A DNA stretch of 64,000 nt from Trypanosoma brucei (GCA_000002445.1 CP000069.1:1280001-1344000); one strand, 5' to 3'; shown: positions 57,173-63,696, counted from the first letter of the stretch. Made by a program: numbers and translations. Notes: generated by a model not told the origin, from the letters alone.

Positions 57173-57603
57173 GCATATTGCTTTGGTGCTAGTAGGGAGT
57201 TGTTGAGTTATGGTGGCTGGGACAAGGCAGAACAAACTTGCGAGGGGCGTTTTACCGTGTGTGTGTGTGTTTGTGTGTGTCCACCACATAAATCCTATAT
57301 GTTGTGTTGGTTAGCCAACCTTCAGGACGATAGTTGTGTTCTACCTTGTGGTGTGATGATGGGGTTTGCACTTTCCTTTCTCGCAAATTTCTTTGGTGTT
57401 GCTGCACTCTGGCTACAATGTGTTTTTTTTTTTCGCCCCTGACACTAAATATTGGACTCCACATCATCTTCCTTGTTCTTCGCTCCGTTTTTCAATCATC
57501 GCGGGATACTACAGGTAAGCGAAATTTCCGTCAGATCTACCCGCAAGAAGAAGAGGCAACATAGACATACACACCCGAGCAAGGGAAGTATTTGCAAAGT
57601 GAT

Positions 57604-58860
57604 ATGACTAGTATCGAGATGCAGGTGGATGTCGCTGAATTGGAAAGAAAATATGAAGCTCTGGCTAATGTAAAAGTTTTTGACGATAACGTTAGAAAAG
57701 GTGTCGATACGATCCTTGCAACGATGCCGAATCCTGACAAGCAGCACAGCCCCGAGGAGAAGGTGCGGTTATATGTCCTTCGTTGCAAGGCCTTGCTCCT
57801 GCTTCCAAGTTACTCAAAGGACTCTGAGCGGTGCTGCAGTGCTGCACTAAAGCTTCGAAACGATCGTCCTGATCTCTGGGTTTTACTCAGTGAATGCTTC
57901 ACGCAGCGGGGTGCAACCAAGGAGGCATGCGAGGCATTGGATAATGCCTTGCGGCTGGACAGTCGCAATGAGAAAGCCCTCAGCCAGTATAGCCAAGTCC
58001 TCCGCATTCGCTCAGCGGACTCCAAGCTGCCACTGCAGGAGAGCAGAAAATATTTAAGTGAGGCCGTGCTGCGTGCCAAAGAGGCTGTTGCAGTGTCCCC
58101 TGCGAGTGCATCATGTTGGCACCTTTATGGTATTGCCTTACTTTCTGAAGCACTCTCGAATGGTATGAATGTTGAAGGCGCGCAGCGTTCGTTAAAAGCA
58201 CTCGAGCAGGCTTCCCGGATTGAGCCCAGGGATCCTGACGTGTGCTACAACAAGGGCGCTGTTGAAGGTGTGCTTGGATACTTTGGAAGTGCGTCGTGCG
58301 ACCTGCTGACGGCGCTGGAGGAGGACCCCCACCGTCTGAAAGGGGCGAGAAAGCAACTGGAGGATTACCTTTCCATAATTAGGCGTGCGATTTCAATGAC
58401 TGAATCCATGCAACGAACGGGGAAGAAAGCATTTACGTCACTGGTAACCAAGCTTGCGAAACATGTAGATTCCATGACGCTGAGGGAAGCACTAGAACGG
58501 GAAACAAGTTCCTTATGTAAGGTGTCGGTGGGTGTAGTGGACGTTTTGAGCGAAACGACAATGGAGCCGATGGTTGTGCTTTCTGTCGACAGAGTCGGTG
58601 AGTTTTGTCTACTACTTTTTCACGGTATTCGCCGCGGTACCTTCAAGATGAGAGACGCCGTAGTCACTTTGACTGTCCCCAAGAGTAACCCCGTTCGTGT
58701 GACCCATGAAGTGCCTGCCATTCCTTTTTTGGATACAAGCGCGTACTCGTGCTCGTATGTGCAAGTGATCGTTGACGTTGATTCGACGATTGTTAATGGA
58801 GCACCAATTTCTTCACAGATGCGGGTGCCACCACAGGTCTCGACAAGGCTATTTATATAA
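57604..58860 (+). CDS. TPR-like repeat protein with a beta-rich C-terminal domain (TTC5-like arrangement, tentative)
   Basis: Helical TPR-like pairs (LLLLPSYSKDSERCCSAALKL, WVLLSECFTQRGATKEACEALDNALRLD, ALSQYSQVLRI, WHLYGIALLSE). The C-terminal ~120 residues are beta-rich, so the arrangement is TPR followed by an OB-like domain. Confidence 0.65.
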   Translation: MTSIEMQVDVAELERKYEALANVKVFDDNVRKGVDTILATMPNPDKQHSPEEKVRLYVLRCKALLLLPSYSKDSERCCSAALKLRNDRPDLWVLLSECFTQRGATKEACEALDNALRLDSRNEKALSQYSQVLRIRSADSKLPLQESRKYLSEAVLRAKEAVAVSPASASCWHLYGIALLSEALSNGMNVEGAQRSLKALEQASRIEPRDPDVCYNKGAVEGVLGYFGSASCDLLTALEEDPHRLKGARKQLEDYLSIIRRAISMTESMQRTGKKAFTSLVTKLAKHVDSMTLREALERETSSLCKVSVGVVDVLSETTMEPMVVLSVDRVGEFCLLLFHGIRRGTFKMRDAVVTLTVPKSNPVRVTHEVPAIPFLDTSAYSCSYVQVIVDVDSTIVNGAPISSQMRVPPQVSTRLFI

Positions 58861-59336
58861 GTCCGTATCGCGCCACATGTGTGCATAATCTACTGACTGT
58901 CTATCCATCTATCTATTCATCTCTTTAAGTAGAGACGTATGCAAGTGCATTGTTGAGCGCATCTCGGCTTCCTCTAATAGAAGGACAGCAGCTTTGCGCC
59001 AAACAAGGTGATTGTTGTGGACTACATATCACAAGCAGACTAAGCATAAGTGATGCATGAGAGATGGGAGATGATGATGAAGGGATGGGGCTTCTGTTGT
59101 GTACCCCCTCGTTATCTTCTTTCTCTTCTTTTAAAATTTTTTTAAAATTCACATACTTGTTTCGCTCAACTTTCTTTATGCTGCTTCCGCGGCGATACCT
59201 GTGGTTTCACCACATATTAGTTTCTTCACTTTTTTCTTTCATTTTTAATTTTAATTTTTTTAAAATAAAATTTACTAATATAGTATCTGTGACGGCAGTG
59301 TTGGTTTTGCTGTGCTTAAGGAAGTGTTTTTGTCTG

Positions 59337-59690
59337 ATGGTTCAACGCATCCGCGTGTTGCATTGCGGGGTGGACAGTTACGGTTGCGGTCACTGTGGTG
59401 CATATTTCTGCGACAAGAGTGACGTCATCTCTCGTAATTTTAATGGGAAATTTGGTAAAGCTTATCTTGTGAGTCGTTGTTTTAACTTTTACTTCGGACC
59501 GGCAGAAGAGAAGGAGTTGATGACGGGAAAGCACATCGTGCGCGATGCTTTCTGTTCTAACTGCGATAGTTACTTTGGCTGGACGTATGACTTTGCCTAC
59601 GAGGACAAGGAGCGGTACAAAGTTTCTCGGTTTGTAGTAGAGCGCCAACTCTTGCAGGCAATAGCGGCGGGGCCCGCTGCCGGCTCGTGA
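59337..59690 (+). CDS. Yippee-family zinc-binding protein, 117 aa
   Basis: CGHCGAYF...GKAYLVSRCFNFYFGPAEEKELMTGKHIVRDAFCSNCDSYFGWTY matches the Yippee/Mis18 fold signature (CxxC ... GRAYLF ... GPAEER.LLTG ... CxxC..LGWKY). Confidence 0.85.
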   Translation: MVQRIRVLHCGVDSYGCGHCGAYFCDKSDVISRNFNGKFGKAYLVSRCFNFYFGPAEEKELMTGKHIVRDAFCSNCDSYFGWTYDFAYEDKERYKVSRFVVERQLLQAIAAGPAAGS

Positions 59691-60915
59691 AAGTTAAACT
59701 GAAACACTGAGGCATGCATCATGTGCAGTTTTTGTGGAGAAAACTCTCAACTCTTTTTTTTTTGTATTTTGTTGTTCTCTTTTCCCTTTCTTGGTGTTTG
59801 GTTTTATGTCTTTAGTGCGTAATCGTTTGTTTCCTACCCTTCTCAAGGTACGTTGGGCATTGGTTTTCCTTACTGCAGTCGTTTGTTGAGGTCAGAAAAA
59901 TTTTGAAAAGATACGTATAATTTATATACCTGCATCTGCATGTGTGTGCATGATGTGTGCTTTTGTTTTTTTCTTTTTTGAGGGGGGGGGGAATGAATGT
60001 GGAATGAAGGAATGTTGAGAGGCATTAACGGAAGTGTAAAAATTCTGCAACTGGGCCACTGACTCCGCCCCATACTGCCACGAAATTCAAGTTTCTCATC
60101 TCCAGCTGTGTTATTAGTTGAGTATTTAAAGAAGAAAGAAAATTCATTATCCTTGTTTGCTATTATTTCAATCTCCGGCTCCTGTTGTTGATTAGCACCA
60201 GGGTGGTATTCAGCGTGTAACCAACAATAGCAAGGTTACCGGTGATTGGCCACTGCGTTTCGTTTACGCGACCCCATGCAACTGTTCAGCCTTTTCTCCC
60301 CTTCTTCAACAGCAGCAATAAGGATCCTTTGCGGTGATTGCTCATTGTGTTGTGGCCTTTTTTTAAAAAAAATTATTTCGTGAGTGCTTTTTTTTTAAAA
60401 TTCTTGTTTGTGTATACGTATGTGTATTCACTTTCTCACAGTTGGGGTTACCAAAGCCAATACCCTGTTTCTACGTTCCTTTTTATTCCTTATCTCCCAA
60501 TGCATTTCGTTGAATTCTCAACGAGGAAACAGAGACTTAAGGGGAGGGGGAGGGAAATGAGAAACGGGAAGTAAAGGAAAGCAAACCAATGGTATTTCGG
60601 TTCCTTTCCTGATGATTTTCTACCTTTTTTTCGTAGCAAAATATGTTCTTGCATTTATATATTTGATGAAGGTCCTGCTTTCGCTCTGCCACAGGCCATG
60701 TTGTTGTGCCAGTCATTTCATCGTCTGTTCAGCACATACAAATCTTTCTCCTCTACATGTTTGTTCGTGCCCGCTCCAACCTTAACGTTTTCCATTTTAT
60801 TATCATTATTAGGGCTTGCAATTGCTCAAGTGCACACACAAATCACCTAGAAAAAAGGTAGAGGTATTTAAGTAGTTTGTATACGTGTCGTTGTTGCTTT
60901 CTTTTTTAAAGATCC

Positions 60916-61707
60916 ATGAGCAACCCTTGGAACGCAAAGCTAGTGGAGGAGCTTCTCTTTCGTCAATATGAAAAAGGCGAGGACGTGTCAATGCTGCTCC
61001 CCCCACCACCTGCATTATCGGTTGATCAATACCTGAAGGAATACGAGCAGAGCACCAAAGTTCTCTTCGCATATGTTCGGAATGGTCCAGCCAATGCTCT
61101 CACGCCGCAGAATATCAATAACCCAAGGATGTACGGTGGTACCCCAACGAAGGGCTCGTCTTCCATGCAACGTACAGGTAACCAAGGAGGTGCGACATGC
61201 GCAACAACATCATCATCCTCGGCATGTGGTGTGGATTCTAAGGCACAAATGCAACGCCATCCTCGAGGGTTGGATGGCTCCCAATCCGCTGCACCATCTC
61301 TTCCCCTCACAGCGGGAGACGCTGCAGCGGGACAGGGAAGCATGGCCCCACCAGAACATATAAGGAAGCGCATTGAGTGGCCCGCCACTGTGCCCACCAA
61401 CTCCGCGTTAAAAAGCAACAGCCGCTCAAGGGTAGCGAATTTAACCACAAAAAGAGTAGCAGCACAGGAGAGAGTGGACCCGGATCTCATATTTATGCAA
61501 AACCCTGAGGAGTTGCCGCTTCATACGATCTTTGCTAAGTATCCCAAGGCCGTCGAATCCATTGCGGCCCTTCGTGGTGGTAGCGGTGATTGGCGTGAGG
61601 ATACTTTTACAGAAGAGGAAGAAATCCTTTACAAGCGCGAGCTGCGTTACAGTCACATGGGACCAAGTCAATGTGGTTTCTTCCGTTCAAACTTGATTCA
61701 AAGGTGA
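60916..61707 (+). CDS. hypothetical protein, 263 aa
   Basis: ATG-initiated ORF co-oriented with the array. Ser/Thr/Ala-rich middle. No motif recognised. Confidence 0.5.
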   Translation: MSNPWNAKLVEELLFRQYEKGEDVSMLLPPPPALSVDQYLKEYEQSTKVLFAYVRNGPANALTPQNINNPRMYGGTPTKGSSSMQRTGNQGGATCATTSSSSACGVDSKAQMQRHPRGLDGSQSAAPSLPLTAGDAAAGQGSMAPPEHIRKRIEWPATVPTNSALKSNSRSRVANLTTKRVAAQERVDPDLIFMQNPEELPLHTIFAKYPKAVESIAALRGGSGDWREDTFTEEEEILYKRELRYSHMGPSQCGFFRSNLIQR

Positions 61708-62103
61708 TACCCAGTGACAAAAGTGTACTTTGTTCAAATTTTGTATTTTTAGATGGTTTTGAAGAAGTTTTGTGGCGCCTTTGCTCTTTCAAAGAGCGCA
61801 GATCGGTTTTACTCTCACTTCCCCTTGTCTTTCTTTCTTCAACTTATTCGCTCTCTTTCTCCGTTGCTGACCGGACCACTCATATAACAAGGGTGACTGC
61901 AACTACTGGAGCGGTTCCGTGTGATGAGTATCGGCGTCAGGCGTGATCATTTGTATTCCGTAGACGCATCAGCAGTGGGTTGTGTTTCACTACTTGTCTG
62001 ACCCACTTGGTGTGTATGACTTGTTGGTATTCTTTTTTTTTCTTCTTTTACTTAATTTTGGACATTCGCTGTGCGTGAACTGTGCTAGGCTGCTGAAGCC
62101 GTG

Positions 62104-63696
62104 ATGCCGTACCCATTGGGGTCGTCTCTTTGGGTCAAGTGCGACGACGGAGAGTGGTGGCCCGCTACCGTCCGTGAAGTGGAGACTGAGTTGCTTCTCA
62201 GCATGGGTAGTGAATACGACACCTGCATTGAATTCTATCATGACCCAGGAAACTTTTATCCACTAGACTCTACTAGCGGAGGCGTGCGACTTCTACACCT
62301 TGCAGTCGAGGAAAGAGACAAGGATGAGCAGCGCCTGTTTAATGTGAGTGCGACGAAGGAGGCCGTAAGGCGGTTACTTGAGGAACGCAGCGGCACACCC
62401 ACGGCGTCTCCCACCGAAGATTCGCAACCTTACAGTGCAGCGGAAATGCGATATATGAGGTCCCTTGTAGATTCAGTGAGCCCAGATTCTGCCGCTGTGA
62501 TGCAAAATTCGTTAAAGCAAGAGGGGGTGAATATTTCTAGAAGGAACATCCGGCGTGTGGCAAGGAAGGAACGTTCTAGCAAGTCAAAGGTTTCGCGTTC
62601 GCGCACTTCCGTGGAGGAACGGAGCACAGTACGGTTGACAAGTAGCCTGGGTTCGACACAAAGTAGTAAAAGTACCAATCCAACACCCCCATTATCTTGT
62701 GGTAGGTCTTCTTCCTCGTGGAGAAGGAGGTCTGGGGGGCGTGGTGGAGTAGAAGTGTATGGGGAGTGTGTGTTTCAGGAGGCTGTCGATGCCGCTACGT
62801 TGGATGTACTACGTGCTGAAGTCTTCGGAAATCCTGACCGGTTCGTTCTTTCACCCTTGTACCGCTTCCTTGATGTGTTAGGCGCGGTGTCAGTCGAGGG
62901 TGAAAGCATAGAAACAACACTTCCATCCCCAGCGGCAGTAAACGAAGAGCCACCTCAGGGGTTTTCCCCTTCTCGGCGTGTTCTTCTGGTTCCTCTGTCA
63001 TCGTCGTCTTACAACCACACGGATGGCTGGTTGGAGTCTTTCGAGTTTGAGAATAAGAGAATAGCCATGGAACTGTTTGTGAACGGTTTGAAGGTTGTCA
63101 CCCCTCCCAACCCGTCGGTACCCTCTGGGAGGGAAAGTGTGGCCGTAAAAACGACACCTGTTGCGGATATAACGGAAATGGTCTCGGGGAAAGAGTTGTT
63201 TTCACTGCGTGTGCACTTTACAGGACTCATGGAGGATGCGACGTTGTGGGAAGGTTATATCGTTGCTGTTTACGTGGAGCGCACCGGCGTTGATTTGCTA
63301 GCCGAGCGAATTGTCTCCAACTACCATTCGTCGCCAGCGCAACGGGAGGTTGAAGGTGTTGTTGATGTGCAGGTTAGGGCCGTCTGTCCCATAACTGCGC
63401 TGCCACTAAGTGTTCCTGTTCGTGCCTGTGGTTGTGAGCACGTTCAGTGCATTGAATTACAGGCCGTGCTGATGCACTGCGATCGTACAAATGTGTGGAA
63501 CTGCCCGCTTTGCTGGGCGCCCATGACACCAGAAACTATTGCAGTGAATTATAGGTTAAAAGAGTGGTTGGACAGTAACAGATCACGCGTAAATAAGGTA
63601 GATTTCATCGTTGAAACCCCTCCTGGTCGGAACCTGAACGTCGTTTGGAGGAAGAACGAACCGAGAAAGATTGACAACATCGAAACGCTTGAGTAG
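62104..63696 (+). CDS. SP-RING (MIZ-type) zinc-finger protein, putative SUMO E3 ligase, with N-terminal PWWP-like domain
   Basis: C-terminal VRAVCPITALPLSVPVRACGCEHVQCIELQAVLMHCDRTNVWNCPLCWAPM aligns to the PIAS/Siz SP-RING (CP...P.R...C.H.QCFD......W.CP.C). N-terminal LWVKCDDGEWWPATVREV...IEFYHDPGNFYPL resembles a PWWP core. Central Ser/Arg-rich linker. Confidence 0.8.
   Translation: MPYPLGSSLWVKCDDGEWWPATVREVETELLLSMGSEYDTCIEFYHDPGNFYPLDSTSGGVRLLHLAVEERDKDEQRLFNVSATKEAVRRLLEERSGTPTASPTEDSQPYSAAEMRYMRSLVDSVSPDSAAVMQNSLKQEGVNISRRNIRRVARKERSSKSKVSRSRTSVEERSTVRLTSSLGSTQSSKSTNPTPPLSCGRSSSSWRRRSGGRGGVEVYGECVFQEAVDAATLDVLRAEVFGNPDRFVLSPLYRFLDVLGAVSVEGESIETTLPSPAAVNEEPPQGFSPSRRVLLVPLSSSSYNHTDGWLESFEFENKRIAMELFVNGLKVVTPPNPSVPSGRESVAVKTTPVADITEMVSGKELFSLRVHFTGLMEDATLWEGYIVAVYVERTGVDLLAERIVSNYHSSPAQREVEGVVDVQVRAVCPITALPLSVPVRACGCEHVQCIELQAVLMHCDRTNVWNCPLCWAPMTPETIAVNYRLKEWLDSNRSRVNKVDFIVETPPGRNLNVVWRKNEPRKIDNIETLE

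What the first reader, a model, noticed from the sequence alone, without database searches (positions are those of the whole stretch)
62104..63696. Unusual PWWP-like + SP-RING architecture in a putative SUMO E3 ligase
The C-terminal SP-RING is a good match to PIAS/Siz-type SUMO ligases. The N-terminus (LWVKCDDGEWWPATV ... IEFYHDPGNFYPL) looks like a PWWP/Tudor-type chromatin reader rather than the SAP/PINIT modules of canonical PIAS proteins. A reader-coupled SUMO ligase would bear on chromatin SUMOylation, which in T. brucei is implicated in VSG expression-site activity.
Basis: partly seen in the sequence, partly recalled or inferred. Interest (0 to 1): 0.5.

Follow-up and report, generated by a model that had tools for sequence, protein, structure and literature searches.

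The report
Second trypanosome SUMO ligase with PWWP domain
This Trypanosoma brucei gene encodes an uncharacterised SUMO-attaching enzyme of the well-known PIAS/Siz type that carries a PWWP-type fold, normally a chromatin-binding module, at its front end, making it a testable candidate for chromatin-directed SUMOylation but not a new kind of enzyme.

Summary
The ORF is real: window 62104-63696, + strand, 530 aa, 59 kDa.

**SP-RING.** It is unambiguous. Pfam zf-MIZ scores 64 bits against a cut-off of 33.5, and the zinc ligands are invariant.

Residues 222-530 superpose end to end on the Siz1, Siz2, PIAS2 and PIAS3 crystal structures, so PINIT, SP-RING and SP-CTD are all present. Only SAP is missing.

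**Identity.** It is not NSE2 and not the characterised TbSIZ1 (Tb927.9.11070, recovered here as a 661-aa paralogue similar only in the SP-RING). By synteny with the AdoMet-synthetase array it is Tb927.6.4830, the orthologue of Leishmania LORIEN. That gene was already listed as a putative PIAS-like E3.

**Reader function is unproven.** The first aromatic-cage position is a conserved Gly, and the domain is strongly acidic.

**Verdict.** A new variant of a known kind, of moderate interest.

The parts
62028..62050 (+). Polypyrimidine tract upstream of the start codon; putative trans-splicing signal
   Evidence: Read directly (ttcttttttttttcttctttt), followed by AG dinucleotides before ATG 62104. 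Function inferred from general trypanosome gene structure.
62104..63696 (+). Complete ORF, 530 aa plus stop. Putative SUMO E3 ligase, inferred to be Tb927.6.4830 and the orthologue of Leishmania LORIEN
   Evidence: Gene ID inferred from synteny and literature.
62104..62388 (+). PWWP-fold domain (residues 1-95): five-stranded barrel plus two helices, EWWP motif at 17-20. Acidic, with an incomplete aromatic cage (G16, W19, F44)
62425..62520 (+). Conserved helical hairpin (residues about 108-139, YSAAEMRYMRSLVDSVSPDSAAVMQNSL), in the position where PIAS/Siz proteins carry SAP. SAP homology was tested and not supported
   Evidence: Conserved in alignments A1, A2 and A4. AF2 helices at 112-123 and 127-139, pLDDT 65-71. 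SAP tests negative.
62521..62766 (+). Poorly conserved, basic Ser/Arg/Lys-rich linker (residues 140-221; net +13, pI 11.8). Probably disordered, possibly an NLS
   Evidence: Disorder and NLS are inferred from composition only.
62767..63288 (+). PINIT-type beta domain (residues about 222-395) with PINIT-like motif PVADIT at 352-357
   Evidence: AF2 model pLDDT 85. Foldseek full-length alignment to Siz1, Siz2, PIAS2 and PIAS3. D355 and T357 are invariant. Pfam PINIT itself was not hit.
63376..63519 (+). SP-RING / zf-MIZ (residues 425-472). Invariant C428, C444, H446, C449, C467, C470
63529..63663 (+). SP-CTD-like region following the SP-RING (residues about 476-520)
   Evidence: Profile alignment to Siz1 and Siz2 continues through this region. 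Foldseek alignment covers the whole Siz1 crystal construct.
63664..63693 (+). C-terminal hydrophobic-acidic tail (…IDNIETLE). SIM-like motif, clearer in orthologues (IEVIDDEEG, DVIALE, TVLDDDDD)
   Evidence: Motif-level inference only.

Best explanation
The ORF encodes a PIAS/Siz-family SP-RING SUMO E3 ligase. It is the kinetoplastid 'LORIEN' protein, inferred to be Tb927.6.4830, and it is a deep paralogue of the only characterised trypanosome SUMO ligase, TbSIZ1. Its catalytic half is canonical. The SP-RING would bind the charged E2 (Ubc9~SUMO). The SP-CTD would hold the donor SUMO. The PINIT domain would position substrate, as in yeast Siz1. A C-terminal hydrophobic-acidic tail probably acts as a SUMO-interacting motif. 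The N-terminal half is what differs. Instead of a SAP DNA-binding motif it has a PWWP-fold (royal-family) barrel, a conserved helical hairpin and a basic disordered linker. The most likely role of the PWWP fold is as the targeting module that decides where or on what the ligase acts. An acidic barrel with two of three cage aromatics would most plausibly engage a basic partner such as a histone tail or nucleosome surface, rather than DNA. Shown here: the ORF, the domain folds, family membership by sequence and predicted structure, paralogy with TbSIZ1, and conservation across kinetoplastids. Inferred: E3 activity, SIM function, nuclear location, and any ligand of the PWWP domain.
Against: No biochemical evidence of ligase activity exists for this protein or any orthologue in the literature searched. 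Pfam's PINIT model is not hit by sequence, so PINIT rests on a predicted structure. The T. brucei PWWP hit is below Pfam's threshold. The first aromatic-cage residue is Gly in 19 of 20 N-terminally complete orthologues and Ser in the other, and W19 is replaced in divergent members, which argues against a canonical methyl-lysine cage. At least one trypanosome PWWP domain (TFIIS2-1) binds neither methyl-histones nor DNA. The gene ID is inferred from synteny, not read from a database.
Confidence: 0.8

Rival explanations
1. The N-terminal PWWP fold is a degenerate royal-family barrel that no longer reads histone methyl-lysine. It serves instead as a protein-protein adaptor, for substrate or partner recruitment or for autoregulation of the ligase. 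The ligase itself is still a PIAS/Siz enzyme.
For: Cage position 1 is Gly16, aligned to F or Y in 2NAS, NSD3 and 9hd7, and Gly is conserved. The domain is acidic in every orthologue, net -3 to -11, unlike DNA-binding PWWPs (the contrast rests on my own knowledge). Divergent members lose W19 (QWTP, KWTP, EWAP). TbTFIIS2-1 PWWP binds neither histone peptides nor DNA.
Against: W18, W19, F44, Y45 and Y52 are invariant across trypanosomatids, which suggests a conserved aromatic pocket. An acidic surface suits basic histone tails. Readers of lower methylation states often replace one cage aromatic with a carboxylate (my own knowledge), and D14/D15 are conserved next to G16.
Confidence: 0.4
2. It is the NSE2/MMS21 SUMO-ligase subunit of the SMC5/6 complex.
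For: Weak zf-Nse hit (E=2.5e-4, 21.2 bits). Human NSE2 appears at E=1e-3 in the profile search.
Against: zf-Nse is below its 27-bit cut-off while zf-MIZ scores 64 bits. Siz/PIAS hits are about 10 orders of magnitude better. The 309-residue C-terminal model matches PINIT-SP-RING-CTD structures, and no NSE2/MMS21 entry is among the 50 rows listed, although 868 matches had E<=10. The protein is 530 aa with an N-terminal beta-barrel, not a roughly 250-aa protein with a helical SMC5-binding arm (the NSE2 description is my own knowledge).
Confidence: 0.02
3. It is the already characterised TbSIZ1/PIAS1, which SUMOylates VSG expression-site chromatin.
Against: The TbSIZ1 cloning primers do not occur in the window. 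TbSIZ1 was recovered as P0072: it starts MVIRPAT, contains TPLKHNE, is 661 aa and 72.2 kDa, matching the published 72 kDa. It aligns with this protein only over 62 aa of the SP-RING, at 39% identity. It has no PWWP hit.
Confidence: 0.01
4. The N-terminal similarity to PWWP is a chance motif (WWP) with no folded domain behind it.
For: The single-sequence Pfam hit is only E=0.061.
Confidence: 0.03

Closest known systems
Yeast Siz1/Siz2 and human PIAS1-4 (SP-RING SUMO E3 ligases; PDB 3i2d, 5jne, 6u75, 4fo9, 4mvt)
   Same: A PINIT - SP-RING - SP-CTD core that superposes end to end on the predicted structure. The SP-RING sequence and zinc ligands match. There is a likely C-terminal SIM-like tail.
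   Different: No SAP domain is detectable. The N-terminus instead carries a PWWP-fold barrel plus a conserved helical hairpin. Pfam's PINIT model does not recognise the sequence.
Plant SIZ1 (SAP-PHD-PINIT-SP-RING)
   Same: It is a precedent for a PIAS-type ligase that carries a histone-reader-type module ahead of PINIT. The domain order and the reported H3K4me3 binding by the PHD are from my own knowledge and were not tested here.
   Different: Here the module is a PWWP fold at the extreme N-terminus and SAP is not detected.
TbSIZ1/PIAS1 (Tb927.9.11070), the only characterised trypanosome SUMO E3
   Same: Same organism and same enzyme family. It has a SP-RING (zf-MIZ 73.5 bits), a PINIT-like 'LPLDIT' motif and a hydrophobic C-terminal end.
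   Different: It is 661 aa and 72 kDa against 530 aa and 59 kDa. Similarity is limited to 62 aa of the SP-RING. It has no PWWP domain. Only TbSIZ1 has a demonstrated function, in VSG-ES chromatin SUMOylation.
Leishmania infantum LORIEN (LinJ.30.3550/70)
   Same: It is the orthologue: 38% identity over the full length to the Leishmania donovani proteins, the same architecture, and the same position next to the AdoMet synthetase (METK/MAT2) genes.
   Different: The literature notes only the SP-RING/Miz motif and calls its role uncertain. No PWWP or PINIT description was found.
PWWP domains of T. brucei TFIIS2-1/TFIIS2-2 (PDB 2NAS, 2M1H) and of BRPF1, MSH6, LEDGF, NSD2/3, DNMT3B
   Different: The first cage aromatic is replaced by Gly16. 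The domain is acidic rather than basic. It is attached to a SUMO ligase rather than to a transcription, methyltransferase or repair protein.
NSE2/MMS21
   Same: It has an SP-RING-type zinc finger.
   Different: See the membership test: the sub-threshold zf-Nse score, the presence of PINIT and SP-CTD, the protein's size and its N-terminal architecture all argue against it.

Membership tests
PIAS/Siz SP-RING SUMO E3 ligases | SP-RING (zf-MIZ) domain with conserved Cys/His zinc ligands | tested here: met
   Pfam zf-MIZ 64.4 bits against a 33.5 cut-off, residues 425-472. C444, H446, C467 and C470 (plus C428, C449) are invariant in 22 orthologues.
PIAS/Siz SP-RING SUMO E3 ligases | PINIT beta-domain immediately N-terminal to the SP-RING | tested here: met
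   Met at the level of predicted structure only. AF2 pLDDT 85. Foldseek alignments of 270-305 columns to Siz1, Siz2, PIAS2 and PIAS3 crystal structures, E 6e-12 to 1e-9. PINIT-like motif PVADIT at 352-357. Pfam PINIT was not hit by sequence.
PIAS/Siz SP-RING SUMO E3 ligases | SP-CTD following the SP-RING | tested here: met
   The profile alignment to Siz1 and Siz2 extends about 40 residues past the RING. The structural alignment covers the whole Siz1 construct.
PIAS/Siz SP-RING SUMO E3 ligases | N-terminal SAP domain | tested here: not met
   No Pfam SAP hit in the full-length scans at E<=1 or in the isolated hairpin at E<=10. A profile of the hairpin finds no SAP chain in the PDB. SAP is not universal in the wider SP-RING family (my own knowledge), so this does not exclude membership.
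PIAS/Siz SP-RING SUMO E3 ligases | SUMO-interacting motif C-terminal of the catalytic core | tested here: inconclusive
   Hydrophobic-acidic C-terminal tails are conserved across the subfamily (NIETLE, DVIALE, IEVIDDEEG, TVLDDDDD). This is motif-level evidence only.
PIAS/Siz SP-RING SUMO E3 ligases | Stimulates Ubc9-dependent SUMO transfer | not testable with these tools
   Needs an in vitro or in-bacteria reconstitution assay.
NSE2/MMS21 (SMC5/6 SUMO ligase) | zf-Nse-type SP-RING above the family threshold | tested here: not met
   zf-Nse 21.2 bits, below the 27-bit cut-off. The profile E to NSE2/MMS21 is 1e-3 to 0.1, against 5e-13 to Siz1.
NSE2/MMS21 (SMC5/6 SUMO ligase) | Small protein with an N-terminal helical SMC5-binding arm and no PINIT (definition from my own knowledge) | tested here: not met
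   The protein is 530 aa with an N-terminal beta-barrel and a PINIT domain.
PWWP domain (royal family) | Five-stranded beta-barrel followed by a helical bundle | tested here: met
PWWP domain (royal family) | Sequence match above Pfam's PWWP gathering score | tested here: inconclusive
   T. brucei scores 14.3 bits, below 25.6. 19 of 22 orthologues hit at E<=1, best 5.4e-6. Subfamily member P0030 passes at 33.3 bits and P0036 scores 25.1. The profile hits 2NAS at E=7e-5.
PWWP domain (royal family) | x-W-W-P motif at the start of strand 2 | tested here: met
   E17-W18-W19-P20. W18, W19 and P20 are invariant in trypanosomatids.
PWWP domain (royal family) | Complete three-residue aromatic cage for methyl-lysine | tested here: not met
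   By alignment to 2NAS, NSD3 and 9hd7, cage position 1 is G16, which is conserved. Positions 2 (W19) and 3 (F44) are present.
PWWP domain (royal family) | Basic surface for DNA binding (typical but not universal; my own knowledge) | tested here: not met
   Net charge -9 and pI 4.6 for residues 1-95. The domain is acidic in all 22 orthologues.
PWWP domain (royal family) | Binds methylated histone lysine | not testable with these tools
   Needs peptide or nucleosome binding assays.
TbSIZ1/PIAS1 (Tb927.9.11070) | Sequence identity with the published gene | tested here: not met
   The primers are absent from the window. TbSIZ1 was recovered separately as P0072 and is similar only in the SP-RING.

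The most novel reading that the evidence does not exclude
The PWWP-fold domain of LORIEN/Tb927.6.4830 is a functional but atypical chromatin reader. It would have a two-aromatic half-cage (W19, F44) flanked by the conserved acidic D14-D15-G16 turn on an acidic barrel. It would recognise a kinetoplastid-specific histone state, either a lower methylation state or an unmodified basic tail. It would thereby direct PIAS-type SUMOylation to defined chromatin domains such as Pol II start or termination regions or the highly SUMOylated focus. This would make it a reader-coupled SUMO writer that evolved independently of plant SIZ1-PHD and works in parallel with TbSIZ1.
Probability: 0.2. Interest if true: 0.65.

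Novelty: new variant of a known kind. Interest (0 to 1): 0.4.

Why it matters
SUMO is essential in T. brucei and marks the active VSG expression site, yet only one E3 ligase (TbSIZ1) has been studied. Its depletion has only mild growth effects.

This gene is a second, pan-kinetoplastid PIAS-type ligase with an intact catalytic core and a distinct chromatin-reader-type front end. That makes it an obvious candidate for the unexplained part of nuclear SUMOylation.

It also adds a PWWP-fold protein that systematic surveys of trypanosome chromatin readers did not include. In the text read here, those surveys name only TFIIS2-1, TFIIS2-2 and later PWWP1, although one review counts three T. brucei PWWP proteins and names only two.

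If the PWWP fold does bind chromatin, it would be a second, independent example, after the PHD of plant SIZ1, of a histone-reader module fused to a SUMO ligase.

The practical value is a clear, cheap set of experiments. The finding does not overturn any concept.

Tried and rejected
1. **SAP domain in the conserved hairpin (residues 108-139).** By eye it resembles L-x-V-x-ELR...G...L. Pfam found nothing. A profile search of the PDB gave only spurious designer-PPR repeat hits. hhalign against PIAS/SIZ1 SAP sequences gave probability 0.35%. Rejected at sequence level; a structure-level test of the hairpin alone was not possible.
2. **Identity with TbSIZ1.** Rejected using the primers and P0072.
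3. **NSE2.** Rejected.
5. **A structural zinc site formed by invariant C13, C41, H46 and H65.** These residues are not conserved in divergent members (P0038, P0040). C41 and H46 lie at opposite ends of one strand. I could not measure distances because no coordinates were available. Left as an unverified observation.
6. **Extension of the architecture beyond Kinetoplastea.** P0042 (PWWP-like N-terminus, 1121 aa) is 51% identical to a 'Colponema vietnamica' transcript. Colponemid cultures are fed bodonids (my own knowledge), so prey contamination cannot be excluded. The taxonomy of the environmental members stayed unresolved.
7. **Literature search for functional data on Tb927.6.4830 or LORIEN.** Nothing was found beyond listings.

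Full report
**The observation**

The window holds an uninterrupted ORF on the + strand from ATG 62104 to the stop at 63694-63696. It encodes 530 aa, 59.05 kDa, pI 5.4. A polypyrimidine tract at about 62028-62050 followed by AG dinucleotides precedes the ATG, as expected for a trypanosome trans-splice site. The protein differs at one residue (V264I) from a T. brucei gambiense 'hypothetical protein, conserved'.

All ORFs of 180 aa or more in the window lie on the + strand. They include a class I Glu/Gln-tRNA synthetase, a DEAH helicase, CAS/CSE1, MKT1 and DNA ligase I. This is an ordinary trypanosome polycistron.

**The catalytic half**

- **SP-RING by sequence.** Pfam zf-MIZ matches residues 425-472 at E=7.9e-18 (64.4 bits, cut-off 33.5). 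zf-Nse stays below its cut-off at 21.2 bits against 27.
- **PDB hits.** The single sequence already hits PIAS2, PIAS3, Siz2 and Siz1 in the PDB. A profile of 18 orthologues for residues 222-530 hits Siz1, Siz2, PIAS2 and PIAS3 at E 5e-13 to 7e-10. NSE2/MMS21 appear only at 1e-3 to 0.1.
- **Zinc ligands.** C428, C444, H446, C449, C467 and C470 are invariant in 22 orthologues.
- **Predicted structure.** An AlphaFold2 model of residues 222-530 is confident (pLDDT 85.1, pTM 0.82). It shows a beta-rich domain followed by the RING and a C-terminal alpha/beta region.
- **Structural comparison.** Against the PDB with Foldseek, the only hits below E=1e-3 are the crystal structures of Siz1 (3i2d, 5jne), Siz2 (6u75), PIAS3 (4mvt) and PIAS2 (4fo9). 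They align over 270-305 columns, which is the whole PINIT - SP-RING - SP-CTD construct.
- **PINIT motif.** PVADIT sits at 352-357, with D355 and T357 invariant.

Pfam's PINIT model simply does not recognise this divergent sequence.

**The N-terminal half**

The T. brucei sequence alone gives only a weak Pfam PWWP hit (E=0.061). Several further results make the assignment solid:

- 19 of 22 kinetoplastid orthologues hit PWWP at E<=1, best 5.4e-6.
- The more divergent member P0030 passes Pfam's own threshold at 33.3 bits, and P0036 reaches 25.1 bits.
- A profile of residues 1-140 finds the solved T. brucei PWWP domain 2NAS at E=7e-5. Weaker hits include another PWWP protein (9hd7), NSD3, MSH6 and DNMT3B PWWPs.
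- The AF2 model has pLDDT of about 90 over residues 1-95, with five strands and two helices.
- Foldseek's top hits are PWWP domains (2NAS, BRPF1, MUM1, NSD3, DNMT3B) at probability of about 1.

After the barrel comes a conserved helical hairpin at about 108-139. It sits where PIAS/Siz proteins have SAP and looks SAP-like by eye. It failed every SAP test I could run. A poorly conserved, very basic Ser/Arg/Lys-rich linker follows (residues 140-221, net +13).

**Is the PWWP fold a reader?**

This is where the evidence stops.

- In the alignments to 2NAS, NSD3 and 9hd7, the aromatic residue that forms the first cage wall (F or Y before P-W-W-P) aligns with G16. This position is Gly in all N-terminally complete orthologues but one, which has Ser.
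- The other two cage positions, W19 and F44, are present. Together with W18, Y45 and Y52 they are invariant in trypanosomatids. Divergent relatives, however, have QWTP, KWTP or EWAP.
- The domain is acidic in every orthologue (net -3 to -11, pI 4.4-5.6). This argues against the non-specific DNA binding typical of many PWWP domains, and would suit a basic ligand.
- Among the trypanosome PWWP domains studied so far, TFIIS2-2 binds H4K17me3 and H3K32me3, but TFIIS2-1 binds neither histone peptides nor DNA.

I therefore regard 'PWWP fold' as shown and 'chromatin reader' as a hypothesis, with roughly even odds against a non-histone adaptor role.

**Which gene it is**

The characterised ligase TbSIZ1 is Tb927.9.11070, a 72-kDa protein. 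Its cloning primers do not occur in the window.

The exhaustive profile search returned a 661-aa protein, P0072. It begins MVIRPAT and contains TPLKHNE, which are the translations of the two TbSIZ1 primers. It weighs 72.2 kDa. P0072 resembles the present protein only over 62 residues of the SP-RING, at 39% identity. It has no PWWP hit. The two proteins are therefore old paralogues.

Klein et al. 2013 list four putative T. brucei SUMO E3s, one of which is Tb927.6.4830, 'PIAS1/Siz1'. Three observations place this ORF there:

- The AdoMet synthetase array is Tb927.6.4840-4920.
- The orthologues are annotated 'lorien protein'. Leishmania LORIEN lies next to METK/MAT2 and is noted only for its SP-RING/Miz motif.
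- An environmental contig shows the same order: TPR - Yippee - ... - zf-MIZ (P0036) - METK - METK. This matches the window's TPR (57592-58860), Yippee (59064-59690) and this ORF at the window's end.

I therefore infer that the ORF is Tb927.6.4830. This is inference, because I could not query TriTrypDB.

**Distribution**

A profile of the full-length alignment was run against 1.84 billion representatives. It gave 26 hits below 1e-30, which form the subfamily, and 2950 below 1e-3, which are generic SP-RING proteins.

It finds the domain only at the N-terminus of this subfamily and a few more remote environmental proteins (P0042, P0040, P0038, P0041, P0053, P0037, P0056, P0054). It never finds it in TbSIZ1-like or ordinary PIAS proteins.

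Named members are all trypanosomatids: Trypanosoma, Leishmania, Leptomonas, Phytomonas, Porcisia and Angomonas. One remote member is 51% identical to a 'Colponema' transcript, but prey contamination cannot be excluded. Whether the architecture exists outside Kinetoplastea remains open.

Nearly all members end in a hydrophobic-acidic tail (DVIALE, IEVIDDEEG, TVLDDDDD; NIETLE in T. brucei), which is plausibly a SIM.

**Mechanism (inferred)**

As in Siz1 and PIAS, the SP-RING would bind Ubc9~SUMO. The SP-CTD, and possibly the C-terminal SIM, would hold SUMO. PINIT would position substrate. The N-terminal PWWP fold, hairpin and basic linker would supply localisation or substrate choice, replacing the SAP module.

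The closest conceptual precedent is plant SIZ1, whose PHD finger sits between SAP and PINIT (my own knowledge).

**Novelty and verdict**

The gene and its SP-RING are already in the literature as an uncharacterised putative E3. Precomputed Pfam tables already show PWWP plus zf-MIZ for a few orthologues.

I found no paper that describes the PWWP-PINIT-SP-RING architecture. In the text I read, surveys of trypanosome chromatin readers did not name this protein.

It is a new variant of a known kind: a canonical PIAS/Siz ligase with an unusual targeting module. Interest is moderate.

Noticed in passing
window 57592-63696; L001 1252-10472: The gene order TPR protein - Yippee - (unknown) - LORIEN-type SP-RING gene - tandem S-adenosylmethionine synthetase genes is conserved between T. 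brucei and an environmental, kinetoplastid-like metagenome contig. The SP-RING gene next to METK is also reported for Leishmania (LORIEN/MAT2 cluster). The T. brucei METK array itself lies just beyond the window's end.
   Followed up: partly
window 62140-62298 (residues C13, C41, H46, H65): Two Cys and two His are invariant or nearly so within the PWWP-fold domain of all trypanosomatid orthologues, which is unusual for a PWWP domain. This could be a metal site or just core packing. They are not conserved in divergent members (P0038, P0040), and the geometry could not be checked without model coordinates.
   Followed up: partly
window 62425-62520 (residues 108-139): A helical hairpin (consensus PF-A-ELRNI-ALL-AV---TA--LRQ-L) is conserved from T. 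brucei to the most divergent subfamily members. It matches no Pfam or PDB family that I could find.
   Followed up: partly
P0072 and relatives P0051, P0062, P0064-P0069, P0073-P0075 (representative search): The TbSIZ1 family has its own conserved N-terminal region (…W-RLH-R-IPNP-S---F…AKDL-KIMQELR-IL-EHGELREAA----SGRK-DL…), which looks like an extended SAP-like motif, and a conserved C-terminal …NPIEL / HPIVL end. No Pfam SAP hit at E<=0.5.
   Followed up: no
P0046 (1519 aa): An environmental protein carries four tandem PINIT-like plus SP-RING units (four matched stretches). This is an unusual multi-SP-RING architecture.
   Followed up: no
window 60916-61707; P0031 residues 1-270: The conserved hypothetical ORF immediately upstream (263 aa, no Pfam hit) is fused to the LORIEN homologue in one EukProt gene model (P0031, 943 aa). 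This is almost certainly a gene-model merge of two neighbouring polycistronic genes, not a real fusion.
   Followed up: no
window 1-64000: All 26 ORFs of 180 aa or more are on the + strand, and GC skew is positive almost throughout. The window lies inside a single polycistronic transcription unit of T. brucei, inferred to be on chromosome 6, with genes for Glu/Gln-tRNA synthetase, DEAH helicase, an EF-hand protein, CAS/CSE1, TCP11, MKT1 and DNA ligase I.
   Followed up: partly
P0042 against P0047: A 1121-aa environmental protein with a PWWP-like N-terminus is 51% identical to a transcript labelled Colponema vietnamica. Either the architecture extends beyond kinetoplastids, or the transcript comes from kinetoplastid prey in the culture.
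   Followed up: partly
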